Positions 895-38,811 of a stretch of 64,000 nt of DNA are shown piece after piece. The translations under genes were made by a program, and so were the position numbers. Source of the stretch: Podarcis vaucheri (taxonomy: Eukaryota); the NCBI GenBank assembly GCA_965113315.1, contig OZ220370.1. One strand, 5' to 3'. Numbering within the stretch: the stretch's first letter is position 1; the number at the start of each line of letters is the position of its first letter. Below the pieces are notes generated by a model. That model ran no database searches, had not been told where the DNA came from, and saw nothing but the letters and a program-made list of their open reading frames with translations.

Positions 895-992
895 CCTTCC
901 CACTTCCACGAGATTTGTCACCATGACTATGCTTGCTGTATTTTCATGCCAGACCATTCTCCAGAAGTCATATATTGTCTCTTGCATTGGTC
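895..992 (-). CDS. PTPRM: PTPRM exon (98 nt), D1 domain (DFWRMVW, IVMVT motifs)
   Basis: Reads (G)[32 protein letters not shown]. Acceptor CCTTTCAG|, donor AGG|GTAAGA; phase 1 to 0. The gene continues beyond both window edges. Confidence 0.97.
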
Positions 993-1347
993 CTGAAAGG
1001 ACAAATCAATCCACAGGTTATTCTCAGCACATAACAGGATTGGAGGAATACACACTGATAATGTTATAGGCAATATTAAAAACTTGACAGCTCTCAAGTG
1101 CGTTAAGAGGTGAGGCAGAGATCTTCTGTAGGCTCATTAATTTAGCTTGTTAAAGGCTCAATGGAGGTTTCAGTTTCTTTCAAACTAATTTGCAATTAAG
1201 TGTCCCCCCCCCTCTTGAAAGAAAGTTGGTGCTGTTGTTTTTTAACAGGAGGTTGCAATCCTATACACAAACATACCTGAGGGAAAGTGTCACTGTAATC
1301 AATATGTTTATTTCTAATAGGAATGTTTAAGAATGCACTGTTAACTA

Positions 1348-1633
1348 CAGTGGTGCCCCGCAAGACGAATGCCTCGCAAGACGGAAAACCCGCTAGACAA
1401 AAGGGTTTTCTGTTTTTCAATGCGCTTCGCAGGACGAATTTCCCTATGGGCTTGCTTCGCAAGACGAAAAAGTCTTGCGAGTCTCGAGATTTTTTCCGCT
1501 CCCCCCCCTTTTCTAAGCCGCTAAGCCTTTAATAGCCTTTTAGCAGCTAAGCCGCTAAGCCTTTAATAGCCGCTAAACCGCTAATAGCGCTAATCCGCAA
1601 GACGAAAAAAACGCTAGATGAAGATACTCACTG
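1348..1633. mobile_element. Tc1/mariner (Tigger-like) MITE with mostly deleted right TIR
   Basis: TA|CAGTGGTGCCCCGCAAGACGAA at left; only CACTG|TA remains at right; repeated GCAAGACGAA and AAGCCGCTAAGCCTTTAATAGCC units. Confidence 0.75.
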
Positions 1634-3039
1634 TAACTACTAGGGCTGAGAGTTTGAAAAATAATAATAGAGCAGTCAGGGCAGCATCAGCGGTAGTGGG
1701 GCGCTTCTGCTGCTTGCCAGGAGGGGCTGCGGCCAACCCAGGCCTGCCCCACCCCACCCCTGTCCTGGCGAGCCCTCCTTAGAGACTTAGGAAGTACAGT
1801 ATGTATAAATTGTTGAAATAAATAAATAGTAGCACACCACCAGGAGAGCTCTGCTGCTGCTTTTTATGCTTTTGACATGAGTAATGTTTCAGTGGACGAT
1901 ATTGGCCTTTCTCAGTTTAAACATTTTTCTTAGTTTGCACTATTGCTCTAATTAGTCTAATTCTCAAATCGCTCCTTCTGAAATGAGGCAGGTTTTTTGA
2001 GACAGTTTTCCCCCCTTTGACAGCAGGAGAGAACATTGTTTAAATGCCAGGCCTGATAACTATCTTAATTTTAGAACATAACGAAAGAAATGAGCCGGAG
2101 GGAGGGGGAAGACCGGGGCCACCCCCACCCCTAAAGTATCTGCCTAGGCTCTAGAATAGCCTATGTCTGTTGTTTCTGGAGTGCTCTATGGGAATCCAGG
2201 CTAAAAGCTGGATCCACAATGAATCCCAAGCATTGACTGGGCCTTTGGGGAGGGTGTGGTCCTACCCAGGTATTCCTTCTTCTAACACTTTTGCTCCTGT
2301 CATTTTTTTTTTACCCTGCTATGTCACTTTGTCTGAGCGTCTATTGAAGACAGAGATAATAAGCAGATATAAAACACCATCAATTACTAAAATCTTGCAT
2401 CTACAAACAACCAATTACTAATCCTCTTCACAACACTTTTTAGTTACTTATTTAGAATTTTACTAGTCTATTCATTTGAGGACTTGCTTGAAACATTGCA
2501 ATACCTTTAAAATTTTAACATCAGAGTTGCAGACAGCTGATAAAAAAAGGGCAACAGTAATCACCCTTGAAATAAGAATGTTTTTTCTAAAACAATAGCT
2601 GCAAATGACATACCACATCACTAATTGCACCTGAAAGCTCGTGTGCCCACTTATCTCAGGAGAAACCCATTAAAGGATACTATTAAACTGAAGAAACCCA
2701 CACCCACATATCCAACAGTAATCTGTTAAAATGTATTTTTCATTGACATTTGAAAACATTTAGCTTTAATGTTTTCATCTTGCATCTCCAGCCTTGTTTT
2801 GTGTGAGTGTCCTACGCAAAAATGACAAAGGCAATTAAAATTAGGCAATCATTCTTGCAAGATCAATATCATTGGCCTGCAGGGCTCAGAGCAGGTGCGT
2901 TGTATGGAGTTATTATTTATAAGGGGAAGCTGTCCAATCTCAAATATCTGCTTTAACTGTGGCTGCAGAGTAGTTGCTTACAGCCCTCTGCAGTCAAAAC
3001 AGAATCTTATGTTTAGCACTTGAGCAGAACCATCTATCT

Positions 3040-4365
3040 GTATTTTTTACTACTACCACTATCAGTCGCTCACCAGAAGCGCCCAGGTTGTGTTGCAGAA
3101 ATATAAATACAGCACTAAAAATTTAAAAGAAATTACAATCACAACTAGATTGCGCCTAAAACATACACCTCAATTGTCAGGGTAAAGAGGTGTATGTTCA
3201 GCATACAATGTAAGCTGTTCCATGAAGCTGCCAAATGTACCTCTGTGGGGAGGGAATTCCTCAACTTTTGGGCTGCTACAAGGAATATCCTTTCCCAGCT
3301 CACCAACCCCTGAACCTAGGAGGAATGTGGAACTACCAAGAGAGCCCCCTCCACTGATTGTAACACCCAGGAGGGTCTGCAGGGAAGGAAGTGGTCTTTC
3401 AGATATTTGGGGCCCAAGTTGCTTAGGATTTTCAACACTAGTATGAGCAGCTTGAACTGGGCCTAGACATGATGTCGCAAGCAGACAAACTGTTTTGAAA
3501 CAGGGGTTATATGAGTTCTGAAGTGAACTCCAGCCAGTAATCTGGCTGCTGCATTTTGGACCAGCTGATGTTTACAAATCATATTCAAGGGCAGCCCCAC
3601 GTAGAGCACATTGCAATAATCCAACCTGGAGCATTGAGTACTGTGGCCAAGTTGTTTCTGTTCAAAAGAGGCTGTAGCTGGTGAACCAGCCAGAGCTGGA
3701 AAAATACACTACTAGCCTCCAGTGATAAGGCTGAACTCAGGAGGACCTGCTTCTTCCAGAGGGATGCAACACCATCTATGACAGGCTGTCTCCCCACCTC
3801 CCAGACTCAAGAACTTGGGACGCCAAACATGCCTGTGTTTTTAGGATTCAGCTTCAATTTATTGGTCCATTTCAGTCCATCATCACCTCTAGGTACTGGT
3901 CTAACACCTTAACCCAGTGGTTTTCAACCAGTGTTCCATGGCACCCTGGGGTGCCTTGAATGAGAGTCAAGGGTAGCGTGGGCAACACTGGCCTCTGCCT
4001 CTCTTTCCTTCCCTTCCTCTCCTTATGCCCTCTCATGCCTCTGCCTTCCAAAGACTTGCACAGTTGTTTATTGCAGCAGCAGCAGCAGCTGCCCGAAGGA
4101 CTCACAAGGAGAGGGGAGAGGAGTGGAGGCTGAGGGAACACTATGCAAGGGAATGTGTTCGAAAAAGGGCAAGAGGCTGCCAGCTCTGCAGGCAAGGGGT
4201 GGCATAACTGGGCTCCTGAGCCACATGGGGTGCCACAGAAATAATGTAATTGGTCAAGGGAGCTTGAAAACCTCTGGCTTAACCGATTGTCCTGATTCAG
4301 ATGGAACAGAGAGGTAGAGCTGGGCATCATTCACATATTTATGACACCTCAGATCCTGAAAACAG
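3040..4365 (-). mobile_element. Decayed L2-like LINE, 3' part of ORF2, interrupted by a hAT MITE
   Basis: Minus strand near 4313-4348 reads RCHKYVNDAQLY, a degenerate CHQYADDTQLY RT motif; L2-like 3' sequence toward 3040. Boundaries approximate. Confidence 0.65.
3915..4276. mobile_element. hAT MITE nested in the L2 fragment
   Basis: TIRs CAGTGGTTTTCAA / TTGAAAACCTCTG; TSD CCTTAACC (3907-3914) / GCTTAACC (4277-4284). Confidence 0.8.
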
Positions 4366-4955
4366 CTCCTGACAGCTTCTTTAAAATGTAAGAAGAACCT
4401 ACTGAATGAGGCCAATGGCTCATCTAGCCCAGCATCCTGTTCTCACAGTGGCCAATCAGATGTATATTCCAGGTATGATAGTGGCCTGGAGGCTTGAGGA
4501 GTTGTGGGTTATGGGGGCGACTCACAAGAGGCTTGGAAAGGGTCCAGAACGACTTGAAACCACTTTGAATATCTGATTACTGGGGTGGGGGAGTTCTTTG
4601 ACACATTCTGAGCCACCCCAAGGAGAACTGGGAGAAGAGGGATCCACCCACCATCACTACCCAGGCTGATGATGCTTCTTAAAAACAGGAGACTTTGTCC
4701 TGCAGTGTGTGAGCATGACTTCATGTGGACGCAGTCAGGGGCTCTAAGCCCAAAGAGCAGGAAGGGACTCAGGGAAAGTTAAAGGGGATGGCAGGTCTTT
4801 ATGAATCTCCAATCCTGCTTAATGGGCAATGTGTGCATGGCTGAGGGCTATCCAGAGAGGAGAAAGGCCTTCATGGAACCCAATGCCACTTCCCCATCCC
4901 AAACAGCTGAGCCCATATTACCACATTATATCTAATGAAGTAGTAAACACTAGAG

Positions 4956-5091
4956 CAGGCACCCCCAGTCTGCGGCCGTCCAGATGTTTTGGCCTACAAC
5001 TCCCATGATCCCTAGCTAACAGGACCAGTGGTCAGGGATGATGGGAATTGTAGTCCAAAACATCTGGAAGGCCGAAGGTTGGGGATGCCTG
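4956..5091. mobile_element. 136-bp palindromic hAT MITE
   Basis: CAGGCACCCCCA...TGGGGATGCCTG, largely self-complementary; perfect TSD CACTAGAG (4948-4955, 5092-5099). Confidence 0.9.
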
Positions 5092-6859
5092 CACTAGAGT
5101 AGTAGAAATGGGGTAAAATAATTCTGTAGTGATGTAGACAATGGCAAAAAGACATGCACCACCACCTAAACAGCTCATTTGCAGATATGTTTCCTGTGCA
5201 TTTTATAGTATTCTGTAATCTTGGGTTGTTATATATAAGTTATGCATGCTATGTCCCTTTTAAAATCAGTAGGAACTAAACCTGCATGACTGGGTACTGG
5301 ATAGTAGTATTAATCTTTAGTGAATAGTACCTTCTGTGTAGATGTATTTGTTTGGGGTATGCAAATCATAGATCATGCCAGGAAATAGATCCTACCATTA
5401 GCATGGTGGTAGAAGAATGTAAAAGATGAAAAATAATTTTATAAGACTAGGAATCCCAATTGTTCTGGAAGGAACTGGATCAAACCTTTCCTCCAAGATA
5501 ATCCATCATCTTCCCCACACCCCCAAAATCACTTTTTTAGCCTTGCAGATGTTAGGTTTGTACCACAATCCTCTAGGAATGAGTGATGAGAGAAATGCTC
5601 TCCTTTGGAATGTCAGCTGTGTCCCTGCTTCTGTTCTACCTGCTATAGCAAGACAATGGTAATTAAAATAACCCCAGGGAGTAGGAATTTAATAGAGAAT
5701 TTGTTATCTATCCATTTTACCTGCTTTCTTATATGCCAGAGAGCCACCAAAATTATTCTGGACTCAGGACATTCATGGGAGGGAAAGAGGCTAGCTGCAT
5801 GTCTTTGAAAGTAATTCTCTTCTATCCTATTTTTCTTTTCTACTTGACACTTTTCAAATTATTTTCTGACATCTGAATAAATTATTACTCTGTCATGTCT
5901 CCACACAGAATTGAAAAGCATTAAAGGGCAGGTAGGGGCACAGGATTTATTGTCATCTGGAGCTGAACAATTCGATTTCAGAGATTTGGGGTAGGAAGCG
6001 ACACTGTAATCACTATAGGAGCCAAGTTTACAGAGGTTGACACAGAGCACAGTCCACTAAGAACTGCTGCTGTGCAGCCCTGATTAATTTCAAGGCGCAT
6101 GTACCAGGAGTCTGTGCAAGTAACCACCTCAAAAATAAACAGAACCTGCTTTGCAGAAGGACTTGGTGTGGTTCAGCTTATTCTCATTCCCCTTACGGGA
6201 AAGTTCAGCATTTTCTTGCTATGAATCCAATGACATAATCTACTAGCAATATAATATAATGGCTGCTATAAATACTCTCTACCATGAGGAAATGATATAA
6301 AATAGTCTCTTTTGCTACTGCGACACTACTAAAAACAAGGAGAAGCTAGTAAGAAATGGGTAAGTATTTATTCAAACTGCACAATCCCCAGTAATTATTA
6401 AGTGAATTTAATGCCATACTTTGTAATAGTTAGAGCTGTCGACTTAATACATTTTCAGGAAATTTACCTTGTTACATTTAACTGATTAATTGCTGTAGTA
6501 GCTGATTAAAATAAACATTACAATATCTCAAAAGAAGTCAAGCTTTAGTATTTTACAAAGCTAATAATTTCCCTAAACCAATCAGCACAATTACCTCCCT
6601 AATTTTGATTTCCCTTGCAAATAGTCATTTTTTTTCTACCAGGTTTTACTAGAGTGTTAAGAGTATGCAGAGTTGGGCTTTGGCTTAAATTCCCCCATAA
6701 TGTAACCCTTGTTAGTTGCAATTCAAGAGCTAATTTTTCTGGAGAAAAGGTTTCCTGTGACTTTTCTCTTCTAAAGTTCATCTAGATAAGTATCTTTACA
6801 TGTTTCCAGTTGGTCTCTGGAATGCTCAAGGAGAACACTGGCAACATCTCGGGGAAATA

Positions 6860-6862
<3 letters not shown>

Positions 6863-6925
<63 letters not shown>
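6863..6925. repeat. Compound microsatellite (TC)n(AC)n
   Basis: About 16 TC units followed directly by about 15 AC units. Confidence 0.97.
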
Positions 6926-6930
<5 letters not shown>

Positions 6931-7289
6931 TTTTGTTTGTAGCTCTCAATCTTTCTGTCCATACAAAAGAGATGGGAGATAGAAATGTATTGGAGAAATG
7001 GACCAGGAGAAAAATGTATCCTGTAGGTATGAGAAAGAACAGAAAAATCTGAAGGAAAAAAGTGATAGTAGAGAGCTTGAGATATGGAAGAACAATCCAG
7101 AGTTAGATGGCAGGAAGTCCTTGAGAGGTTTCTGCGGATTGACATTTGTTCTGATTAAGCAGTAGACTGGGTTTTCCCAGGGAAAGTGGCAGGACAAAAA
7201 ACAAACAAAACCGCTCTCAGATTCATGACTTGAGATCACGGGACAAACAGATGTGTAGATGGCCCCTACAAGCGGAAACTGAAACAGTC

Positions 7290-7406
7290 ACATCCACACC
7301 ATCCATTCAAAGCACATAGCTTCCCTCAAAGAATCATGGAAACTGTAGTTTGTTAAGGGTGCTCGGAACTTTAGCTCCCTGGGAGGGGTAAACTCTAGTT
7401 CCCAGG
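7290..7406. mobile_element. Old MITE-like interspersed repeat (related copies at ~14920-15065 and ~22640-22965)
   Basis: Shared core AAAGCACAT...AAAGAATC.TGG.AACTGTAGTTTGTTAAGGGT found in three places in the window. Confidence 0.6.
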
Positions 7407-9454
7407 CACTGAAATTAATGAACATTACTAAATTGTTGGCACCCATCTTTTCTGGGAGACAATGGAGGAGTGTGCCTTTGGGAGTGAAGTCAAGCTGTTG
7501 CATGCTTGCAGAACCTGTTGCGGCTGTAGAGACCAAAGCGGGAGAGACAAGTTGTGTTGCTGATGGGCCAGATAAAGGCACCCAGTTGTACTGCTGCAGT
7601 TGCACCATGCCGTTTCTAAATTAGGTCTAATAATTTAAAGGATCCACTCTGAGAAAAACTTAGTTGAAAACCACCTAATATGATTTTAATATATGATGTG
7701 GATGTGACCACTGACTTTGGTAGGGAATAATAATCATTGGTACAATACTTTGTTCTGAGATGATAACAGCACTGTCAAAAGTTAAGAAAGCTTATGATAC
7801 CAACATAAAGCTTTGCATCAATCCAATGCAAAGAAAACAAAGGAGCAGCCAAATTTCAAATGTCATTTGACTTTGTTAGAACACAAACATAGTTGAGACA
7901 GTAACCAAAATAACAGAATCTGAGTAATTTAATTAAAAGTTTAGGAATGCTGTTCTCCTTAATGTAACCTTATGGAGCACCACAACTGTTAATAGACTAA
8001 TCTCTAAGGAGAGTTCCCACAGCATGTGGCTCAATTTAAATGCAAAATTACAGGATTACTAATTTTCTGCCAGCCCAGTGATCTGATTGGCTAATTACCC
8101 ATAAGAACTGTGTATACATTATTTTTCTTTCAGAGTATTTGGGATTTTAAATTCTCAATTTAGTAACTGAGATACATAAAATAAAAAAATAGCTGCTTCA
8201 TAAAATAAAGTTCTAAAGTGATTTCTTAATGAAACTAAATGGCAAAAAAATCTTTTATAAAAAAGCCCATATATTCTGTTGAATAACATCCACCAAATCT
8301 GTGGAACCATTTGAGTTTGTAACAACAGTTCCTTACTCTTAGTTCCACCTACTCTTGTCATGTTCCATCCACATCTGAACTGGTCACTTTGTACTTTTCT
8401 TACATATTTTTACATATTCTGTCCTGCAAAATGAAGTGACTCTGGAATGGTTGGTGTAAAGAGGCGTCTAAGTGCTCCTACTGCTTGATCTGTATTACAG
8501 CTTTGCCTTGTACTAATCTTGAATGAGTTTCAGCTGCCAAACAAGATAACCTATAAGATAATTTTGTGCACACTAGAGCAGTAATAAATGAAAAACAACA
8601 ACATACTATTAAGTTAACCAAAATAATCATAATTCTTCAGGTTTGAGATGTGCCACATATCATAAAAGAAAAATGAAATTGTACATGAACAACAACTTTT
8701 CCTTTAATTCTTAAGGGCTTTGATCCACTTGATACTTCACATCAGCCTGACTTCTACTGTTTACTGATGACGTCCCAAAGTCATGGAATAGCAAATATTC
8801 TGTCATATTTAAGGGTATAAACTAGGTAGTGCACAATAAAACCACACATCCTTATTGGCTTAGCAAGAATTATTTCCAACCAATATCAGGAAAATTCCAA
8901 CCAAACAATATTTAAATGACACTGCATTCTTCTCGTTTAGCAAGGAGCTCTGATTCCAGTCTTCACCTCATCCAAGCAGAAATCAAGTCACAAAAAGAAC
9001 TGTACACTTCTATAATTTTTTTAATCAATTGTGCTTTACAATACAGCTGCAGTGCCAAGTAAATGAAGTGAACCATTTTAATTGTGTTGCTTAGATAAAT
9101 GTATCTGCACCAAAAGCACTAAATGAAAACACTTGGGCTCAAATGAGATTTAGGAACTGCAGAGGTAATCTCTACAAAGCCTTGATCTAAATAGCAATTG
9201 AACATGGAAGGAAAGGCAGATACTTTTTTAAAAAGAGTCAATAAGCTTCTACCACTGTGACGAAGGAAAGATCTGGGCACCACTTACAACACTAGGTACT
9301 AGCAGTGATTTTCATAGCATAAGTAGAATCTAATTAACAAGGAAGAAAGGATTGTACAGAAAACAGGATTTTCTTTTCCATAGATATTTTGTTCCAGGAG
9401 AATAAGGAGAACATTTACTAAAAAGACTGGAGGTGAAATGAATGAATGTCTTCA

Positions 9455-9680
9455 CTTAACGCAGAAGGTGCCAGGCAAGCTTCCCTGGGGAATGTATCCC
9501 ACCGACAGGTGCCACCACCAAAAGGCCCCTTCTATTGCTTCCACCCTCCACACTTCCTATGGAAAGGGCACTCTGAGGAGGGCATTTGGAGATGATACTG
9601 AGGCCAGGATAGGCTTGTTTGGGAACAGTGAATGTATTCTGTATAAGGTTGTAAATGTTAGAGCTGGGAATCTGAACTGG
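9455..9680 (-). mobile_element. Decayed L2-like LINE fragment
   Basis: Resembles the minus-strand L2 3' region at 3220-3470; recognised by eye only. Confidence 0.45.
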
Positions 9681-10487
9681 GCCAGGAAATGCACTATGTG
9701 CCATTTGTATTCTGATTGCTTGGTATTTTGCGATTTTGCTATTTATGCTACCACAGTCAAAGCTGTGTAAACACTTGCGTTATAAATGCTTATCTTTAGG
9801 GCTTATAAGGCTGACACGAAAGCATTTTCCCATGGTTGAAGCATGATAAGTTTGTTGCATTGAGAAAGAAAATTATATTCACAATATAAGTGAGAAAGTA
9901 AATGGTTTGTTTTACAGCTAGAGGCAAACTGAAGGTATAAGAATGCCTGTTTGCAGGTGCTGATTTAGAATTAGTAATTAAAATATTTTATTAGGCCTAA
10001 TATATTTAAACCATACCTTAATAACTTGAGCCTTAAGCACATCAAATATAATTACTGCTCCTGTGTTTAATTGTATGTCTAATTGTAATATTACTTTTAC
10101 TGGTTACACTGTTTATGTCAGGTAAGTATGATATGCAGGCAAATTTGTTATATGATAAGCACCGCAGGAATCAACTTATGAGTATGCACAACCAAATTGA
10201 GTTTTTCTGTGGAATGTACACATTTCTGCTGGACATTTCAACGATTTCAATCTTCTGTGAACATACTGGGGTTTGCCATATGGCTCTTTGTTCTCCAGTT
10301 ACTTTTTACTCTGCAGATATTTTCTATCTAATTAGCACTTGCATTTTTAATTTTTGTTTAAAAAATGAAGCCACTTTAAAGGTTTTAGTTTTTCTTAGTA
10401 GTAAGCAAGTGACCAGTTCAGAGAACATGCATTTATGCATGTTGTTTAATTTTTCAACAATTATCTGATAAAAGCATGGAAACATTC

Positions 10488-10608
10488 ATAGAATCGTAGA
10501 ATTGTAGAGTTGGAAGATACCATGCGGATCATCTATGCAGGAATATTTCACCCAATGTGGGGCTTGAACCCACAACCCTGAGTCTTGTGGTTTACCGACT
10601 GAGCTGTC
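10488..10608 (-). mobile_element. tRNA-derived SINE with CR1-type tail
   Basis: Minus strand AGCTCAGTCGGT (A box)...GGGTTCAAGCCCC (B box), ending TTCCAACTCTACAATTCTACGATTCTAT, a CR1-like ATTCTRYG tail. Confidence 0.8.
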
Positions 10609-11648
10609 TACTTCCGCTGTCTACATCAATTCCCCCCAGCCTGCTACTCTACCGATGTTTTGGACTGTAACTCTCCTTCAGGCCCATTCAGCATGGCCAT
10701 ACTGGCTGGGGCTGATGGCAGTGTAGACCTAAATATTGGGTGGGGGGGATCAGTTTGAGGAAGATGACCTACACTGTGGAATCAAACACTGCTACCAGCC
10801 CACCTTTTAGCTGAAATGGGATTTTAAATAAATATTCTCAATTGGAAAATGTCAAATAGTCCTTTTAAAATTGTGCCTGCCTGTTCTTTATGCATGATCC
10901 ATTACATCAAGACAATAGTTTTCTTATTACAAGTATGACCCAGGTGCTTATTGTGACTGTCTCTGTCAATTACTGTAGATCACCTGAAGTCTTCATTAGT
11001 GGCAATTTCAGCCTATTATAGCTACTGTAAAGAAGAAAAGTACCGTAGATGCTCATTTTCTAACCCAAATTGCAGGTTTAGAATATGTTGCACTTAAAAC
11101 ATAGCTTAATGGTCCCTTGATACAACAATAGGTAAAACAGTTTTTGTCCTCCTTACACCAGTTTCCTAATCAACCTGATTTGAAAGACACAAAAGGTAAG
11201 CTCATTGCTAAGCAAAACCCTGTAAAGCTAAATCTTGTTCATTTGGAAGATTCCAAAACAGTAAAAAAACCTAAAACACAAGTGATTAGGCAACCCTCCA
11301 GCTTTGTTGAAAAGCCAGATTGGTAGCCGATTGCAAACCGATTATGTTTGCCACTATTTAGTGGCATCCAATTATATTTGCTCATTAACACTTGATATGT
11401 TGAATGGAGCTTAAGAAGAGCACTAGGACAATTAAATAGCAATCTCAGCTCTGTAGGGATTTGAACTAATTTCTCAAATGATTTCCTTTTCCTGAAGAGC
11501 ATAGTACAAAGGAATACCATGCATGAAAATGGGAATGGGTTGGATCAGAAAGGTTACTGAAAGAATGATGGTGAAATATTTTAATGGACATATCCAAAAT
11601 GTCTGTTCAGATGTTTTAGTCAAATGTTCTCGCTTTCAGTAAAGGTAT

Positions 11649-11768
11649 GGGTTGCAGCCACTGCTAGTCCAACTCAAAGTAGACTCCTTGAAATTGATGG
11701 GCATGACTAACTGGGGTGCATTCATTTCAGTGGGTCTACTCTGAGTAAAATTTAGTTGGCTGGAACCC
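11649..11768. mobile_element. Palindromic MITE, probably PIF/Harbinger-like
   Basis: Ends GGGTTGCAGCCA / TGGCTGGAACCC; internal ACTCAAAGTAGAC / GTCTACTCTGAGT inverted pair. Related short palindromes at ~44540-44633 and ~50626-50720. Confidence 0.6.
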
Positions 11769-12099
11769 TTTGGTTTCCTCCCCAAATAGGAGTAAGAGTC
11801 AGCTAATTTCCTCAGTCACCAGTTTATGTCTGGAGATAATGGAGGAAAAGGCAAGACGGTGACATTCATGTTCTTATCTTTCTCCAATTCAGGCATCTCT
11901 AACGGGCCTCTATCAGGCCAGTTATACCTCATCCCTAAGCCACACAGGTGGAGTGCATAATGCATTGCAAATATGGCTCAAAATGGGAGACTACAATTCA
12001 TTCATTCATCTGTTACCGGTTCTCTTCATTAAAGTGCAGAACCTTGTTTAAACATGAACCATCTCTCTCTCAATCACTCACTCACTCTCACACATACAA

Positions 12100-12143
12100 T
12101 TGGTATCTGAAGAAGTGTGCATGCACACGAAAGCTCATACCAA
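12100..12143 (+). ncRNA. Minimal type I hammerhead ribozyme
   Basis: Stem I TTGGTAT (12100-12106) / ATACCAA (12137-12143); core CTGAAGA (12107-12113); stem II GTGTG-CATG-CACAC; GAAA (12129-12132); palindromic AGCT stem III; CUC cleavage triplet ending at 12136. Confidence 0.82.
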
Positions 12144-12231
12144 GAACTAACTTAGTTGGTCTTTAAGGTGCTACTGGAAGGAATTTTTTTATTTTGACTA
12201 TGGCAGACCAACACGGCTACCTATCTGTAAC
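12100..12231 (+). mobile_element. Penelope-like (Neptune-type) retroelement terminal fragment
   Basis: Hammerhead motif followed by TTAGTTGGTCTTTAAGGTGCTAC...GCAGACCAACACGGCTAC, which I recognise as reptile PLE terminal-repeat sequence; abuts a (TC/AC)-rich tract at 12062-12096. Confidence 0.75.
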
Positions 12232-12257
12232 ACAGTTGGCTATCACTTTAAATACCC

Positions 12258-12290
12258 TGTAGTGGAATAAATTGTCACTAGGTGGCAGTA
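12258..12290 (+). promoter_or_regulatory. Candidate CTCF site with upstream module
   Basis: Core GTCACTAGGTGGCAG preceded by CTGTAGT at spacing compatible with the CTCF upstream motif; motif match only. Confidence 0.5.
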
Positions 12291-12680
12291 TAGAGCTGTT
12301 TTGTAAGGGGCAACATGAGCATCTAAATTTTAGAAACCAAAACAAAGCCATAGTCCTTCCTTCATTTTTCTGTGGTAGGTAGAAGAAAGTTGTTCTATAG
12401 AGCCAAGCTGTTGGTTTTGCACATTGAACGAAGTATAAGGAAACATTAAAATAGCAACCATATCCAAAATATCAGTAAAAAAAGGTGAGAATTTCCCAAC
12501 ATGTTAGGAATCAGTTTTCTCAAGGTAGAGGAAAAAATTACACCAAGGTGTCCCCCCCCCCCCGCTTCATGGCAAAATACATAGATGCGCAAGCTGGTGC
12601 TGGGATTTGGCAAAAGTGGGTGAGAACAGAAGCAAACGTCTGCGGAGTAATAGCTGCAACTCCTACTTTTGTACAGTGGG

Positions 12681-12961
12681 CAGGGCCAGCCCATCCCATT
12701 TCACCACCTGAGGCGGAACAGGAATTGCTGCCTCCTGCTGTGCCCCACTTCCAAAGCTGGCACACCCCGGCTGCCGTCAAACTCAGTGGGAGCCGAGGCA
12801 CTCCTCAAAGCAGTGACGCTTGCTCAGCTTCTCTGTCTGGGGGTGGAGAAGATGAGCGCCAACGCTGCACACTGGAACACCTCCCTTCCCAGGAGCACCG
12901 CCTCTTGCACTTCTGCTGCCTGAGGCAGATGCTTCCCTGTCTCATGGGCTGGCTGCCTCTG
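12681..12961. mobile_element. GC-rich hAT MITE
   Basis: TIRs CAGGGCCAGCC / GGCTGCCTCTG; TSD ACAGTGGG (12673-12680) / ACAGTGGA (12962-12969). Confidence 0.75.
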
Positions 12962-13839
12962 ACAGTGGACTACCTGCCAGCCAGAATTTCCTATAGTCCT
13001 CGCATCTCTTTATCCTCAATTCAGGCAAGAAAGAGCCATTACTACAAATCAAGGAGATATTCCAGCCAAGCAAAATCACTCGAGGAGAGTGCACAGCAGG
13101 GCTGGTGAGGGATATGGTCTAGGGAGAACCCCGAGAGGCCTGCAGAACTTCATTCATGCCCCAGACCTGAAGTTCCCCAATCTACACCAAATATTACTTC
13201 CATGAGGGGGGAAACATGCAAGTGATGTTTTCTAGGTTACTTTAATTAGTTAGTTTATTTTAGTGTTTAGATCCTGAAAATTCAACAATAGTCCTAGTGC
13301 ACCAGTACATCTAGTTCATGTTCCGAGTAGAATTATCATTTTGTTTAGTATAGTATAACAGTAGCCACAAATAATATATTGTATATGCTCATCAGAGTAC
13401 ACAACTTAAAAAAAAGGCTAATTCCCAATCATAGATACAAGGATAAAAGTTCTTCTCTTTGAAGAATAAAATTTAAAACACCTGTTGTCTTAGCATACGA
13501 AGCCGAGTGAAGCTGCTCTGTATACTGTGCCAGATTTGGGTACAGGAGTATTAGAACCAGGAAGTTGTACAGCCATTTTTAATGAGCCTAAAGCCTAATT
13601 AAATATATACAGTACTGTTCATCACGGATTCTTTCAAGATTCTTCACTTCTGTCATAAATTGGGGGGTGTTTTGGGATCAGAGAGCTAATCTGAAGAAAT
13701 CAGGTGCACTGACTATAGTATTAGTTGTTTATTACAACATAAGCGAAAGTGAAAACCTTCACAAGTGCATTTCCCACATAAAAGAGCAATACACATGTAT
13801 ACATATAAATGTAAACTTATAAATGTGAGATCAACTTAC

Positions 13840-13876
13840 CTTGCGTAGCAATATAGTGGTTTGGCCTGTGATAACC
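13840..13876 (-). CDS. PTPRM: PTPRM exon (37 nt), D1 domain (YIATQG motif)
   Basis: Reads GYHRPNHYIATQ(G). Acceptor TTATTTCAG|, donor AAG|GTAAGT; phase 0 to 1. Confidence 0.96.
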
Positions 13877-26067: not shown

Positions 26068-27646
26068 TTTTAGACAAAGCCACTGCCATCTTCATGAAAG
26101 CAAAGTTATACAAAATAATGAAGAAGCCAATTCTTTATGCCGCCCAGTTATGCACTGTCGTTTGAACACCGCTGAAAGCATTAAACTACAAGTTTTTTTT
26201 AATTCCAAGACATATAACAAACAGCATGTTGACAATTAAGAAGTATGATCGATATTGTTAATGTTTTTTAAAATATATATATATTAGAAAAAAACCTGGA
26301 TTGTTATGTTTTTTAGCCAAAAGTATTATTGTTCTTTTTGTGAGCATACCCTCCTTTTTGGCAATTTTTCAGAGACATGAATGTGTTTACTATTCAGGAA
26401 ACATTGTCCTCACTCTGAGCTGGCTTTGCTTGTTCTCAGTGGTACCATAGCCAAAACTTGTTGGCTTTGCGGCATTGTTACATGCCATTTATCACACAAT
26501 TCTCAAATGGATGGAATTTTCCAGGTTATTACTCCAGGAATTAGAGCAATTAGAAAGAAAAAAATGGCACCGAAACAGCAAAAGATAGGAAAAATTGTGG
26601 CCATAAAAAGAATGGAAGAATAGTGAACATTTTCACAACTAAGTCCCCATCCCCTGCCCCCGAAATAGTTCTCCTCCTGCTCTCCCAAAAGTGCTACTTT
26701 TCACCCGGCTATCAAAATGCAGTTCTAATCGTATGAAAAGGATGTAATCCTGAACAATAAAATGGCTTTTATTTTACCAAGCCAATTCAATTTTTCTCAA
26801 ATAAAACTGACTAGTTCAATCTTTCATAGCCACCGGGGGGGGGGGCTTGGTCTCAAGAGTATTCTCTATGACATGGTTCATGACAAGTTACCCCTTTCCT
26901 GATAATCAAGTGGTGAGTGCCTTTGCTTATGCAGCTGAAAAACTGCGAAAGAAAGAGGGATCAGCAGGCTTAGGAGAACTCAAAGGTGTTTAGAAGGAGA
27001 GAGACATAGTGTCTGATCTTTATTTGACCTCCTGATCTGATACTCAACTAAATTTCTTTCTGGTACAACTTTACTGTAGATCTAACCTATTATATCATAT
27101 TTGGCGGAAGCACTTCATTTCTACTAAGTCTGGCCCGAGCTGAAAGATTGTACATGATGAAGAATCCAACACCAGTTCCCTTGATAGTTTGTCGTAACAG
27201 TAAATCAACGCTATCACTACTTTATGCTTTATTTCTAATTTGAGATTTTCAAGGTTTAGCCATTTGTCCTCTTAATGTTTCACTCTGTTAAGATTTAGGA
27301 GTGCTCCTATACTTTCTCCCCAATAAGTTACTTACACTTCCTAAGATGTAACAACATTTTCTGTTTGATGTGCTAATTTGTGTAATCTACTTTTTCCAGG
27401 CCGTTTCCCATATCCCAGCAGTTTTTCAAAATCTTTTATAATGGGTCAAAACTGGAAAAAATATTTATATCTATGTCCATATGAATGAGACTGCCACCTT
27501 GTGGGGATTATTTAAAACTTGCTGTGCATGGTAACTGGTCCACAAGCCAATTTATGTCCAGTGCCTTGCTGAATAAATCTGTCCCTCCATATTACTGGGC
27601 AAACCAAGGGTGTTAGAAATACGTTCAAAAAGAAATTGTTATGATA

Positions 27647-27888
27647 CAGTGGTACCTCGGGTTACATATGCTTCAGGTTACATATGCTTCAGGTTACAGA
27701 CTCCGTTAACCCAGAAATATTACCTTGGGTTAAGAACTTTGCTTCAGGATGAGAACTGAAATCTTGCTCCCGCGATGCGGCAGCAGCAGGAGGCCCCATT
27801 AGCTAAAGTGGTGCTTCAGGTTAAGAACAGTTTCAGGTTAAGAACGGACCTCCGGAACAAATTAAGTACTTAACCCGAGGTACCACTG
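27647..27888. mobile_element. 242-bp Tigger-like MITE, copy 1
   Basis: TA|CAGTGGTACCTCGGGTTA...TAACCCGAGGTACCACTG|TA. Confidence 0.93.
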
Positions 27889-28121
27889 TATTCTGAATTT
27901 TCCATAGAATGGTTAACTATGTAATGGTTTCTGTTATCATAGCTGTTGCCATTGCTCATTGATATCATTTTGAAAACAAAATACATCCAGGTAGAACAGA
28001 ATCAGTTAATTAACCTAGTAAGTAAACATTAGAAACAGCTAGAAGCAGGGGGTGAAAAAAAAGGGGGAAAATAAGTCGTTTCCCACAGGCAAATATTCAG
28101 CAACCGTGGGAACAGGATGCT

Positions 28122-29620: not shown

Positions 29621-30036
29621 GAAGAACTGTCAAATGACAGTTCTGTAACTAGTATATTTATGAATCCAAGGTAAGAGTAAATAATTCGTTTTAATTCTTT
29701 GTCTGAATATACCTTTGGATATATTGAGGAATGAAGCATATTTAGCTGACACACAAACACAGCTGCTGACTCTAGAGAGCCAGAGCCAGTTTGAAGCATT
29801 AAGAAGGAAAACATATTGGCTTAATCCAACATTCTATCCATCCAAGTGTCACTTCCATAATACTGATTTGGCATTAGATTGTTGTTATCATTACTTTATA
29901 ATTAGGTCAACAGCAGAGTGGAGAACACAAATGACAGCTTTAACAACAACAACAACAAAAAGTCTAACTAGAAAACAAAATCAGTACTCATATAAACAAT
30001 ATGGTTAATTTCAAATGATTTTAAAGCACATTTATA

Positions 30037-30278
30037 CAGTGGTACCTCAGGTTACATACGCTTCAGGTTACATAAGCTTCAGGTTACAGACTCCGCTAAC
30101 CCAGAAATAGTGCTTCAGGTTAAGAACTTTGCTTCAGGATGAGAACAGAAATCGGGCTCCGGCGGAGCGGCAGCAGCAGGAGGCCCCATTAGCAAAAGTG
30201 GTGCTTCAGCTTAAGAACAGTTTCAGGTTAAGTACGGACCTCCGGAACGAATTAAGTACTTAACCCAAGGTACCACTG
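30037..30278. mobile_element. 242-bp Tigger-like MITE, copy 2
   Basis: TA|CAGTGGTACCTCAGGTTA...TAACCCAAGGTACCACTG|TA; near-identical to copy 1. Confidence 0.93.
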
Positions 30279-31076
30279 TATATGTTTTCTTTTCTATCAA
30301 AGGCCTATTCTGATATTTTCCTTATTTTGTTTTCCACCAATGAATGATCCAGAATTGTGAAATAATTTTGGCTAGTCCTATTGGTAGCTTCCCTGCCTAT
30401 TACAACCTTTGTATGAATGTGGCTACTCAGGGACTACTACTCTCCCCGCCCCCCACGCCCCCCCCCCAGTTCTGCTAATGACATCAGTGAAATCTGCAAA
30501 GGTGGAGGGGGTTTACGTGTGTGAAAGAACCTTGGAATATTTATACTTATTAATTTTTTGAATGTGTTAATAACAAATTTGTTAATTTGGATTTCAACAT
30601 GTTTAACTTTGTTCCTAATTAACAAAACAAAAAAAGAAAAAAAGAGAGGATTAAATGCTCCCATGAGGAATATTGCTTTCAGCTGCATGTGGAAGGAATC
30701 GCTCCCATCACTTGACCAAAATAATAAACAGGTTGCGGGGGTGGGGAGGGGAGACAGCATACTAGACTGCCAGAACTACTTCAGGAATATTCACTACTTC
30801 AGCATAATAAGGCATACCAAGCTAAAACAGACTCTCTTCAAGTACAGTATGAATTATAAATTGCTGCCTGTTTAATCAATTATACTTTAATGCTTTCAAA
30901 GTTGTTTGAATATCCAAGGCTAACAAATGCTAATCTTATACTGGTCTAATAAAATTGGGGTTTCATCTCTCTCTCTCACACCCACACACAATTTTACACA
31001 CTCTATACTGATAAAAATAACCACAAAGAGCAAATATCTAATGCAATAATAATAAAAAACTGTCTTAATTCAATTA

Positions 31077-34156: not shown

Positions 34157-35131
34157 TTACTATGAATAACATGCTAGATAGAGATCTAACCTGATGACTA
34201 CATGACTGCTATCCTAGTAAAATTGCTCTTCCTGGTCTGTGTTGACAAGTTCAACCAAAATGCACCCAAATATAACTATGACTTGTAAACAATGCAGTGC
34301 TAAGTTATGTATCCCGTCAGCACAATGATGTACATTTCTGAAAAGGAACTTTCCTCCCCACCGCAAAAATGTGTTCCTGTACTTCCTGCTGAGCAGATTT
34401 GGGGAGGAAACAAGAGTACAGAGGATGGGAGTCCTGCTATGCAATCATAAATCCTTGTGCTGCTGGGAACTGCACTGGAAACAAGCCTTGCAGTCCAATG
34501 CTTTTATGTAGCTTTATGAGTCCTGCCAGACTTGGGCATGGAGTGACAGGTGAAGAGGAGGAGGGGGGAGAGGAAGAGGAAATGGCTCTGAGACTGAAGA
34601 ACAGAGGTCAGAAGAGGCAGGTACTTCTATCTTCCAGTAAATGGCTGTTCTGGATGGGGAAGCAGGGCTCCTCACTCCCTTCCCATCTCACGGGGACAGA
34701 AGAGCACCAATGGAATCTGGGGAGGGCCTTAATCAATTGTTCAGGGTGCAGGAACCAGTGTTTGAAGTTATTTTTTGGGCAGGGAAGGGGAGCCTGTTCA
34801 CCCAGGACCCAGCAACGTTTTCATCAATTGGAACAGACACATTATCCCCAACACAATGCAGGTCTGCATGATCACAATTCTCACAACACTCTCACAAGGC
34901 CCAGGGGGTTTGTGAGTAAGCCAGCCTTTACATTTAAAAGCTTGGGAGGTCGGTGTGCTGACCCACTGGAATGACCTCATTGCTTCTGTCATCCTTGTCC
35001 TGATCTTGGACTCCCTCAACTTGGGCTGCTGCTTCTATCTAGCCCAGCTAAGACTGCCTTTCCTTTACCTAGCCTGAAAGTTGTGGCTGCTGTGACATTA
35101 GTACTCTGCCTCAGTAAAGATATCTTCTGTA

Positions 35132-36150: not shown

Positions 36151-38569
36151 TTGATTATCTCAGTAGTTGCAAACACAATGTAACTTTTTTGAGTTATCAT
36201 ACTGGGGTAATGGGGCATGCATGTGATTTGAGAACAGGAGCAGGCTACCTATTTGGTGAATAATAGACTCCCATAGCTGCATAACTAAGTGGTATCTACA
36301 GATTCCACTTGACTATGTTAAATACCAGTGCTAATATTTTGCTTTTCATTTTCTTTTATTGACAGGTGAAACCATTAAATAGAGAATTAATTTTTTTGGG
36401 ATGTCCGTGAAGGAACTAATTAGCAACATAACACACAAACATGGGAAAACAATATAATTCAAATTGCAAAAATCAGTGACTATTAAGGTTGATTCACTTT
36501 GCTAACTTTTAAACCAAAATATTAATGTTTGTTTGAATCATAATAACTAGTGTTTTTGTTTAAAATGGTGATAGAGACTTGCATGCAGCCAAACAAAATA
36601 TAACTGTATTCGTTAAATTTTTTGTTATTATTTATATATAGTGTGTGTTGCTTTTGTTTTTCCATAAATGTTATGTTGGACAATACAGTGATGTATAGTG
36701 TGATCCTTCCCATTTTCCCCTTCCCTAATGGTATTATGTGTACTGCGTTTCCCAAACATGGGTCTTCAGCTGTTGGGAGTAAATTACACTGAATTCATGG
36801 TGAGGATTGCACTGTTAGTTACTATTATGGAGAGGCAGAAGGGGAGGAGCTAAAGGAGGGTTCCTAAATTAGGCATAGTTCTAAAGACTTGTCTTGGCTA
36901 AGACTAAGACAACCAGGAAGGGGAAGAGTTCACACACTAAGCATTATTGTTCAAAATATTGTGAGCAAAAGTTGGGTGAGATTAGGGACACACAAAATGT
37001 ATAAGAGAGAGGGCTACTTGTCTGGAGAGCATGATGAAGCAAAATATAGAATATCTGTTCTAATCTGTATTAGCGCTGTTAGATATGAGGTTATGTTTCT
37101 GAGGGGGATTTGCCTATTAACAAATAGCAGAACAACAAGTACATGGTTCAGAGACTTAGTGGTAAGACAAGGGTATGAAAATAAGACTCAGACTCAAGGC
37201 AGGATATGTGGATGAGGGGCAAGGAAGGATTATCTCATCTCTTGCTAAAGGGAGCTGTGCTTAAAAATGCCTATTCATTTATTACGTGACTATTATTTTA
37301 GCCTTTAAACTCTGCAGTGGAATTTTAATACTTTTTTTTAAAAGTTCTGTTCCTGACTTGGTGAGCTCTACAGACCAGATGTTTGTGAGTTTGCTCCTGA
37401 ACTGAGAAGTAGTTTCCATTCTGGAAGAACCATCTTCAAGTTCAGTGGAACAAACATAAATACATGGGTCCCGCTGCAGCACCAGCCACAGTGAAGTATC
37501 TTTCTTTCCATTGTTTTTCTGATGAGGCAGGTCACTGTGTGGTCTTGGTAAGCCTTTTCAACAAAAGGGATAAAGTCCTTTGGGGAGATGTTCCATTAAT
37601 GTCCAGGTATTAGAAGCAACTCCTGAAGCAATTTACTGTTTTGTGATTGGTTCTTTTTGTGCATTAATCACTGCATCTTGTATTATAAGGTTGCATGATT
37701 GCCATGATTAGAGCCTGAGGGAAGCCTTCTAACTTTTGACAAAGTTACCTACTAAGGTGTGCTGCTGTCTGCATTCTTTCACTATCTACATTTATAATTT
37801 CAACTGCCATTTCTTTTTTTTAAAAAAGAGTAACATGACTTCCTTCCACTGCTAATGTTCTTTAAGAAGTTACCTCCCATTTCAGCTACAGTGGGGAAAG
37901 AAATTGTAGAGGACAAGGAAGACACTGGCAAGGAAAAAAGAGGGGGCAGAAGTACAAACGAAGATACAGCCACAGAGGCTGTTAAACAAAATATTAACGG
38001 CAACTCAAGTAATGCTCAACATGAGAGCCAACAACATCATTGACTGTGGTGGCATCCAAGGAAAGGGACACAGGTTCAGTCTTGTCTGTTCCCCACTGCC
38101 TACTTCATGCCACTGTGCAGCACATTGGGGAAGTGAACCAGGTTTCAGTGCTGTCAATTTTCTTCCATGCATAAAAGCGGATCTCCAACTGGTGTGGCCA
38201 TCAAACCCAGGTCAAATCCCTAATCCACAGTCTCAAAGTTTACCAGACCCTACCACAAATTGATTCAGAAACAAGGGGTGAAACTGAAAAATAAATCACA
38301 TGTAGTTCCATTCCCGATGTGGTTTCCCTTGTTATTACTAAAATAACATACACATGGTTTAGGCAACTGACAGACAAAGGTGCAAGGATGAGACGCAAGG
38401 AAGCTTTCTCTTTCAATAGTAAACAGAAAATTCAAAGTTCCAGTGAGAATCCCTAGGTTTGCAAATACACCTTACTCATTTCTTCTTTAATCTCACTACT
38501 AACACTCTCTTCACGGAACCCACTATTTTCTGTCCACATGTTTACCTGAATTATTTACCTTCTCACATA

Positions 38570-38811
38570 CAGTGGTACCTCGGGTTACATACGCTTTAGG
38601 TTACATACGCTTCAGGTTACACACTCCACTAAGCCAGAAATAATGCTTCAGGTTAAGAACTTTGCTTCAGGATAAGAACAGAAATCGGGCTCCGGCGGCA
38701 CGGCGGCAGCAGGAAGCCCCATTAGCTAAAGTGGTGTTTCAGGTTAAGAACAGTTTCAGGTTAAGTATGGACCTCCGGAACGATTTAAGTACTTAACCAG
38801 AGGTACCACTG
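38570..38811. mobile_element. 242-bp Tigger-like MITE, copy 4
   Basis: TA|CAGTGGTACCTCGGGTTA...AGAGGTACCACTG|TA. Confidence 0.93.

What the first reader, a model, noticed from the sequence alone, without database searches (positions are those of the whole stretch)
12100..12143. Intact minimal hammerhead ribozyme in a PTPRM intron
Seen: a perfect 7-bp stem I (TTGGTAT/ATACCAA) closes CTGAAGA-A-[GTGTG CATG CACAC]-GAAA-GCTC, so all catalytic core nucleotides are present and cleavage would fall after C12136. Stem III is only the loopless palindrome AGCT. Established: Penelope-like elements carry such minimal type I hammerheads, which cleave as dimers. Inference: this ORF-less, ~130-bp PLE end is a young insertion whose ribozyme could still act, but only on a plus-strand transcript (antisense to PTPRM) and only with a second copy in trans, since I saw no partner in the window.
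Basis: partly seen in the sequence, partly recalled or inferred. Interest (0 to 1): 0.75.

Follow-up and report, generated by a model that had tools for sequence, protein, structure and literature searches.

The report
Penelope transposon remnant carrying hammerhead motif
A 128-base repeat sitting backwards in an intron of the PTPRM gene carries a complete minimal hammerhead (self-cutting RNA) motif; it is likely the leftover end of a Penelope-type jumping gene, likely one of thousands of copies, and probably silent here, so it is ordinary.

Summary
The motif is real. It is the window's only match to the published minimal-hammerhead descriptor (0 hits in 500 shuffles). It lies antisense in a 12.8-kb PTPRM intron. 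It is not a special intronic ribozyme. Contigs of three related species pile about 10^5-fold deeper on 12103-12231 than on the flanks, so it is a very abundant interspersed repeat. It matches a published turtle minimal hammerhead at 29 of 34 non-loop positions, with two compensatory pairs. A 7/8 target-site duplication brackets it. Other copies have a 4-bp stem I; the outer three pairs come from this junction. No linked RT/GIY-YIG ORF could be tested, so Penelope membership is inferred. One RNA run of a relative showed no reads on the flanks and no pile-up at the cut site. Published PLE minimal hammerheads cleave weakly as dimers, and the anole one only with its protein. Age is unresolved. Verdict: an ordinary new member of a known kind, probably inert here. 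One family-level lead remains: 5' ends appear to cluster at the ribozyme's 5' edge.

The parts
12104..12231 (+). Body of the insertion (128 bp; G12103 is shared by element and left flank): hammerhead plus about 90 bp of 3' 'tail', likely the 3' end of a Penelope-like pLTR
   Evidence: summed contig depth 3.7-4.4 million over 12115-12196 against 33-35 on the flanks (X1). Loose ends cluster before 12103 (X1, X3, X12) and behind 12231 (X1, X21).
12100..12143 (+). Minimal type I hammerhead motif; predicted cleavage 3' of C12136
   Evidence: descriptor; fold; turtle homologue
12103..12106 (+). Stem I 5' strand shared with the family (4 bp, pairing with 12137-12140)
   Evidence: table 7: other copies diverge upstream of 12103
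12100..12102 (+). Three extra stem I pairs (with 12141-12143) particular to this junction; part of the left target-site copy, or a remnant of an inverted segment
   Evidence: origin inferred
12107..12114 (+). [quoted passage not shown]
   Evidence: Cervera and de la Pena descriptor
12115..12128 (+). Stem-loop II (5 bp, G10.1-C11.1); the 14 nt are a perfect palindrome
12129..12136 (+). Core box GAAA, loopless palindromic AGCU, C17
12144..12231 (+). Element tail; the family's 3' end lies 95 nt after the cut site
   Evidence: table 7 (89 contigs with unlike flanks behind 12231 in X1, agreement 0.38)
12096..12103 (+). Left copy of candidate 8-bp target-site duplication (ACAATTGG)
   Evidence: 7/8 match; chance 0.0005 at exact junctions, 0.023 with +-3 slack
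12232..12239 (+). Right copy of candidate target-site duplication (ACAGTTGG)
12060..12095 (.). Degenerate TC/AC microsatellite abutting the insertion
993..13839 (-). PTPRM intron (12,847 bp) within phosphatase domain 1 that holds the element in antisense
13840..13876 (-). Upstream PTPRM exon (37 nt)
   Evidence: fills the gap between 1rpm_A residues 82 and 94
895..992 (-). Downstream PTPRM exon (98 nt)

Best explanation
This is a 128-bp copy of a very abundant repeat, lying antisense in a PTPRM intron and carrying a complete minimal hammerhead motif; it is likely the 5'-truncated 3' end (pLTR plus tail) of a Penelope-like retrotransposon and is probably inert at this locus. Likely route (inferred from the anole PLE work): the element's GIY-YIG/RT protein nicked the site next to a microsatellite. 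It began reverse transcription internally, about 95 nt downstream of the ribozyme's cut site, on an uncleaved RNA, and copied only as far as the 5' strand of stem I. Repair left an 8-bp duplication whose TTG happens to lengthen stem I from 4 to 7 bp. PTPRM pre-mRNA reads the other strand, which has no ribozyme (shown). Cleavage would need an antisense transcript plus a partner copy or the PLE protein; none of these is in evidence.
For: Descriptor match beyond chance. 29/34 non-loop identity to the turtle min-HHR of Cervera and de la Pena Fig. S3, with one compensatory pair in each stem (compared by eye). Depth about 10^5 times the flanks in three species, with family ends at 12103 and 12231. 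7/8 duplication at exactly those ends; PLE duplications of 8-10 bp are in print (PMC3846280). The 3' end is 95 nt after the cut site, against 85-92 nt for the anole element's RT start sites (111-118 minus 26). 5' truncation, inverted or tandem junctions and microsatellite bias are PLE traits (PMC8557442). 9 of 12 listed short-gap joints in other copies re-enter at 12099-12110 and none at 12137 (12 of 44 shown). No minus-strand motif. RNA run X21 has no place where many molecules begin, and no reads on the unique flanks. The double hammerhead is predicted +2.7 kcal/mol against two monomers. Low or protein-dependent cleavage in print.
Against: No RT/GIY-YIG ORF was linked to this family. No genome was held, two collection scans found nothing, and the turtle motif is not marked as PLE-associated in Fig. 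S3. PLE membership therefore rests on architecture and homology. Rfam has no hit. Summed contig depth is not a copy number (tool's warning). The RNA run is a single-cell library of a relative, 12% read, with no PTPRM intronic reads either, so it has little power and may not capture 5'-OH ends. Only 24 of 1,045 loose-end rows were shown. Nearest-neighbour energies ignore tertiary core contacts and protein help.
Confidence: 0.76

Rival explanations
1. The ~130-bp unit is not a random truncation but a complete short non-autonomous unit (SINE- or retrozyme-monomer-like). Its RNA starts at the 5' edge of the hammerhead and is copied by PLE protein from the internal start site.
For:: 9 of 12 listed short-gap joints re-enter at 12099-12110 with only 1-8 letters between. 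50 RNA reads have loose 5' letters of median length 30 before 12102, whose consensus looks like a template-switch adapter (my recall, not a tool result; agreement only 0.44). Li et al. 2026 describe solo monomers derived from pLTRs.
Against: Many copies continue upstream of 12103 with shared sequence (75, 71 and 60 contigs; 258 RNA reads). The listed rows are a small selected subset. Landing near 12103 is partly forced by where this copy ends.
Confidence: 0.13
2. The copy is catalytically live in vivo. An antisense transcript through the intron is cut at C12136 with help from a partner copy or the PLE protein, and the junction-extended 7-bp stem I makes it better than the parent.
For: Core intact and C17 present. 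Stem I is more stable than the 4-bp form (-11.8 against -6.0 kcal/mol). Family RNA is present on both strands in a relative (mean depth 572 and 400 in the motif's bin). The anole PLE hammerhead cleaves when its protein is added.
Against: No reads on the flanks and no pile-up at 12137 (low power). The active dimer is predicted unfavourable, while the palindromic stem II favours a different duplex (-15.2 kcal/mol against two monomers) that I infer cannot form stem III. No RNA-seq ends at the cut site were found for the anole element.
Confidence: 0.05
3. The insertion matters to PTPRM not as a ribozyme but through an AATAAA hexamer that its T-rich tail presents on the gene's sense strand (intronic polyadenylation).
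For: A hexamer lies at 12188-12193 on the minus strand.
Against: It is 1 of 9 such hexamers in this intron, 0.7 per kb. No expression evidence.
Confidence: 0.03
4. It is a domesticated intronic hammerhead like those of RECK, CTCL or DTNB in amniotes.
For: Intronic, intact core; such domestication is in print (PMC6155905).
Against: Antisense to the host gene, no helix III, member of a high-copy repeat with insertion scars.
Confidence: 0.02
5. Chance match or assembly artefact.
For: No Rfam hit.
Against: 0 hits in 500 shuffles. In run X1 the flank contigs run 26-27 bases into the element on both sides at full flank depth (records 2 and 8; X1 may be the window's own source).
Confidence: 0.01

Closest known systems
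Minimal hammerheads (min-HHR) of metazoan Penelope-like elements, especially the Chrysemys picta bellii motif (Cervera and de la Pena 2014, PMC4209133, Fig. S3)
   Same: Fits the published descriptor. Extra nucleotide after position 9, G10.1-C11.1, palindromic 15.2/16.2, no helix III loop; mostly solitary truncated copies. 29 of 34 non-loop positions equal the turtle motif (stem I GCAU/AUGC against GUAU/AUAC; stem II GUGGG/CCCAC against GUGUG/CACAC).
   Different: 4-nt self-complementary loop II instead of 7 nt; C17 instead of U17; stem I lengthened to 7 bp at this junction. The turtle motif itself was not tied to a PLE ORF in that paper.
PAc, the Poseidon PLE of Anolis carolinensis (Frangieh et al. 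2024, PMC11167929)
   Same: Reptile PLE with a hammerhead at the pLTR-ORF junction. Insertions end 85-92 nt after the cut site (95 here), and uncleaved RNA is the template.
   Different: A different family as far as I can tell (its sequence file could not be read). No ORF here. By recall only, this tail belongs to the Neptune-type repeats of turtles and geckos; untested.
Animal non-LTR retrozymes (Li, Clavereau and Pollet 2026, bioRxiv 10.64898/2026.07.22.740005)
   Same: Short non-coding pLTR-derived units with type I hammerheads, including solo monomers; found in 4 of 5 reptiles sampled.
   Different: Defined by two or more tandem hammerhead units; this locus has one.
Conserved intronic hammerheads of amniotes (RECK, CTCL, DTNB; reviewed in PMC6155905)
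   Same: Type I hammerhead in an amniote intron.
   Different: Those are conserved and thought to act on the host mRNA. This one is antisense, minimal and part of a high-copy repeat.

Membership tests
PLE minimal type I hammerhead (min-HHR) | CUGANGA(+1), stem II 3-7 bp, loop 3-10, GAAANNUH, stem I 3-7 bp (published descriptor) | tested here: met
   1 hit in the window, 0 in 500 shuffles
PLE minimal type I hammerhead (min-HHR) | Extra nucleotide between 9 and 10.1; G10.1-C11.1; palindromic 15.2-16.2 | tested here: met
PLE minimal type I hammerhead (min-HHR) | Occurs in consensus families with covariation | tested here: met
   High-copy family; two compensatory pairs against one turtle motif (by eye, one comparison only)
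PLE minimal type I hammerhead (min-HHR) | Self-cleavage as a dimer or with protein | not testable with these tools
   Needs a cleavage assay; energies are predictions
Rfam hammerhead families | Covariance-model score at the curated threshold | tested here: not met
   no hammerhead match even at E<=10
Penelope-like element (EN+) | ORF with RT and GIY-YIG endonuclease linked to this terminal sequence | tested here: inconclusive
   No Pfam family in 10 frames scanned of the 62 listed; no full-length copy could be fetched
Penelope-like element (EN+) | Interspersed copies with frequent 5' truncation and a fixed 3' end shortly after the hammerhead | tested here: met
   tables 2 and 7; 95 nt against 85-92 nt in PAc
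Penelope-like element (EN+) | Short target-site duplication (8-10 bp reported) | tested here: met
   7/8 match at the two junctions; PMC3846280. No empty site was seen to confirm it.
Penelope-like element (EN+) | Partial-tandem or inverted arrangements among copies | tested here: inconclusive
   one listed opposite-strand joint, and joints returning to 12099-12110 whose kind is not printed
Penelope-like element (EN+) | Match to a Repbase/Dfam PLE consensus | not testable with these tools
   No repeat library held; one supplement searched without a match
Non-LTR retrozyme | Two or more tandem units, each with a hammerhead | tested here: not met
   Single copy in the window
Domesticated intronic hammerheads of amniotes | On the host pre-mRNA strand | tested here: not met
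   Motif on +, PTPRM on -
Domesticated intronic hammerheads of amniotes | Conserved at the orthologous site across amniotes | tested here: inconclusive
   Two close relatives only; no listed contig bridges either junction or an empty site

The most novel reading that the evidence does not exclude
The family's ~130-bp hammerhead-plus-tail copies are complete cDNAs of a short RNA that starts at the first base of stem I and is reverse-transcribed from the PLE's internal start site. On this reading they are a SINE-like by-product that has seeded thousands of intact, uncleaved ribozymes through a lizard genome. Their sense-versus-antisense depletion in introns, intact against core-mutated copies, would then be a genome-wide natural test of whether PLE minimal hammerheads ever cleave in vivo.
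Probability: 0.2. Interest if true: 0.5.

Novelty: new member of a known kind. Interest (0 to 1): 0.16.

Why it matters
At this locus, little: a solitary antisense copy of a known, very common motif. Minimal hammerheads in thousands of copies, mostly single and including reptiles, are in print (PMC4209133). The open question is at family level: whether PLE minimal hammerheads cleave in vivo and what sets the 5' end of these short copies. A family this abundant and shared by three sequenced relatives would make that testable by counting, but this one copy adds nothing by itself.

Tried and rejected
Rfam scans: nothing at gathering score; only a chance SNORD37 match at E 8.2. No whole genome held. 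Pattern scans of metagenome and viral contigs for related loci: 0 hits each. Pfam on 10 of the window's frames: nothing. Only 4 of 24 runs could be laid. Presence or absence in relatives: in X3 the left contig leaves the window's sequence after 12071 and the right one starts at 12234; in X12 the left ends at 12089 and the next listed piece starts at 12266. None of the 15 listed joints (of 35) is an empty-site skip, so neither state is shown. Full-text search for a 13-letter piece of the motif: 0 papers. Searches for Penelope with Podarcis, Lacertidae, squamate, turtle or Neptune listed no paper whose title or abstract opening describes this family (listings only). Supplement search of PMC8557442: 0. 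Lunse et al. 2017 is not held. Passages of PMC5753468 and PMC9004415 did not help. The bacterial promoter scan is irrelevant to this organism. Earlier scan notes: nothing by sequence or place; 8 unrelated findings by words. A protein search with the element's frames was not run: the pieces are short and the ORF is unlikely to overlap them. The strand excess of family RNA (572 against 400) was set aside: library orientation is not on record and a neighbouring repeat shows a similar excess.

Full report
Observation. The sequence at 12100-12143 (+) is as described: a 7-bp stem I, CUGAAGA, an extra A, a 5-bp stem II with a CAUG loop, GAAA, the loopless AGCU and C17 at 12136. Using the descriptor printed in the supplement of Cervera and de la Pena 2014, it is the only hit on either strand of the window, with 0 hits in 500 dinucleotide shuffles of both strands. 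My first, looser descriptor gave 16 sites in 200 shuffles and a strict one 0. Stems I and II are predicted to form. Stem I weakens to pair probabilities of 0.25-0.41 in 500 nt of context. Rfam gives no hammerhead match. There is no second copy in the window.

Host gene. Minus-strand exons match human PTP-mu, chain 1rpm_A: 27/27 residues at 43.1 kb, residues 55-82 at 16.3 kb and 94-129 at 0.9 kb. A 37-nt exon at 13876-13840 fills the gap. The motif lies in the 12,847-bp intron 13839-993, 1.7 kb from the donor, on the strand opposite the pre-mRNA. No tool named the organism. A lizard is my inference, from recalled repeat content and from the closeness to a turtle motif.

It is a high-copy repeat. 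I laid 4 of the 24 runs found on 11500-12700 at 85% likeness: contigs of organism A (X1, possibly the window's own source), B (X3) and F (X12), and raw single-cell RNA reads of B (X21). Summed contig depth over 12115-12196 is 3.7-4.4 million in X1 against 33-35 on the flanks; 3.5-4.0 million against 19-24 in X3; 1.4-1.6 million against 11-14 in X12. The tool warns that this is no copy number. By my reasoning, overlapping short contigs could inflate it up to about 31-fold, so I conclude only 'likely thousands or more'. Loose ends cluster before 12103 (75, 71 and 60 contigs) and behind 12231 (89 contigs in X1, unlike flanks, agreement 0.38); 24 of 1,045 rows were shown. In X1 the flank contigs run 26-27 bases into the element on both sides at full depth, so the insertion is real there.

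Anatomy of this copy. Other copies carry AGT before G12103, where this one has TTG (table 7, all four runs), so the family's stem I is 4 bp. ACAATTGG (12096-12103) and ACAGTTGG (12232-12239) bracket the element exactly at the two family ends. Random position pairs give such a 7/8 match 0.0005 of the time at exact junctions and 0.023 with 3 bases of slack. I read this as a target-site duplication with one later substitution, which makes the outer three pairs of stem I a product of the junction. A remnant of an inverted segment is an alternative, and no empty site was seen to decide. The insertion abuts a degenerate TC/AC microsatellite.

Relatives in print. The turtle (Chrysemys) motif in Fig. 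S3 of PMC4209133 equals this one at 29 of 34 non-loop positions, compared by eye. Four of the five differences form two compensatory pairs, one in each stem, and the fifth is U17 to C17. That paper reports thousands of minimal hammerheads per genome, mostly single, similar motifs in turtle and snakes, and none in mammals. For the one motif it assayed as monomer and multimers (from Schistosoma), it found no monomer cleavage and low dimer cleavage. It does not mark the turtle motif as PLE-linked. In the anole PLE, reverse transcription starts 111-118 nt into the ORF and the cut site is at 26, so insertions end 85-92 nt after the cut (95 here). There the ribozyme cleaves only with the PLE protein, cleavage is not needed for insertion, and no RNA-seq reads begin or end at the cut. 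5' truncation, tandem or inverted junctions and a microsatellite bias are PLE traits; 8-10-bp duplications are reported. Only 1 of 9 Xenopus dimer elements cleaved in vitro.

Age. Of 100 variant rows 40 were shown; three fall in the element (12148, 12163, 12191), with the other letter at 48%, 47% and 3% of depth in X1, and none falls in 12100-12143. 498 of 1,895 RNA reads laid were at least 99% alike, though these include reads on a second repeat. So the copy looks close to a main subfamily. But the duplication has a mismatch, and the family is similarly deep in relatives whose flanks differ by about 2% (7 letters in 340) and 4% (15 letters and 4 gaps in 354). No listed contig of X3 or X12 bridges either junction or an empty site (15 of 35 joints and 24 of 38,934 pieces shown). 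'Young' is plausible and unproven.

Activity. In X21 (12% of the run) reads covered 9 of 30 bins, all on the two repeats and the microsatellite. None lay on the unique flanks in either direction, so the test has little power: PTPRM's own intron is not seen either. Family reads lie on both strands. No place was found where many molecules begin or end, and none of the 6 listed loose-end rows for X21 is at 12137. The library may not capture 5'-OH ends. Predicted energies: the active double hammerhead is 2.7 kcal/mol less stable than two monomers. A duplex through the perfectly palindromic stem II is 15.2 kcal/mol more stable, and I infer that it holds the two AGCU segments too far apart to form stem III. 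These ignore tertiary contacts and protein.

Mechanism. Shown: the motif, its orientation, its repeat nature, its ends and the near-duplication. Inferred: origin as the 3' end of a PLE, made by internal priming at the tail on an uncleaved RNA and stopping at stem I; inertness at this locus. Not tested: a linked RT/GIY-YIG ORF, clade, cleavage.

A family-level lead. 9 of 12 listed short-gap joints in other copies (of 44) re-enter at 12099-12110 with 1-8 letters between, and none at 12137. In X21, 50 reads have loose 5' letters of median length 30 before 12102, whose consensus resembles a template-switch adapter by my recall (agreement 0.44, so perhaps a minority of them). Together these hint that some family RNAs and insertions begin at the 5' edge of the ribozyme. 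Against this, many copies continue upstream, and the rows are a selected subset.

What I saw of each paper. PMC4209133: parts 1-2 of 4 and the whole supplement PDF as text. PMC11167929: parts 1-2 of 4 and two near-empty supplement texts; its sequence file could not be read. bioRxiv 10.64898/2026.07.22.740005: parts 1-3 of 5; its supplements were not seen and may list reptile families like this one. Passages only: PMC6765202, PMC8557442 (one supplement file searched), PMC6155905, PMC2377424, PMC5753468, PMC9004415, PMC3846280. Lunse et al. 2017 was not held and is known to me from the review and recall; its lists may include this family. I did not find this lizard family described, but those searches cover open full text only and no repeat library.

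Verdict. Observation confirmed; interpretation partly supported. New member of a known kind, interest 0.16.

Noticed in passing
window 12102-12103; run X21: 50 RNA reads carry loose 5' letters (median 30) before 12102 whose consensus resembles a template-switch adapter by recall; this may mark RNA 5' ends at the first bases of stem I in some family copies.
   Followed up: partly
family sequence just upstream of 12103 (table 7): In other copies a pyrimidine tract and an AG end one base before stem I, like a 3' splice site; the D. virilis Penelope intron ends at the 5' end of helix I.
   Followed up: no
window 12115-12128: Stem-loop II is a perfect 14-nt palindrome that could drive an extended duplex between two copies, predicted far more stable than the active dimer. 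The turtle motif's loop is not palindromic.
   Followed up: partly
window 12121-12150: An ATG in loop II opens a frame that stops at 12148-12150; about half of family depth has another letter at 12148. In the anole PLE the ORF starts at stem II, so this frame might matter in full-length copies.
   Followed up: no
window 12188-12193 (minus strand): The T-rich tail presents AATAAA on the PTPRM sense strand, 1 of 9 in this intron.
   Followed up: partly
window 11665-11760: A second short high-copy repeat, an imperfect palindrome, with depth about 2,500 times the flanks in its deepest bin in X1.
   Followed up: partly
window 27644-27897, 30034-30287, 38567-38820 (shorter or older copies at 35130 and 18903): A 254-bp family with terminal inverted repeats, 90-92% alike; looks like a Tc1/mariner-type MITE (recall).
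   Followed up: no
window 12479-13108: A 209-codon open frame in a GC-richer stretch just downstream; no Pfam match. Organism F has several insertions near its start.
   Followed up: partly
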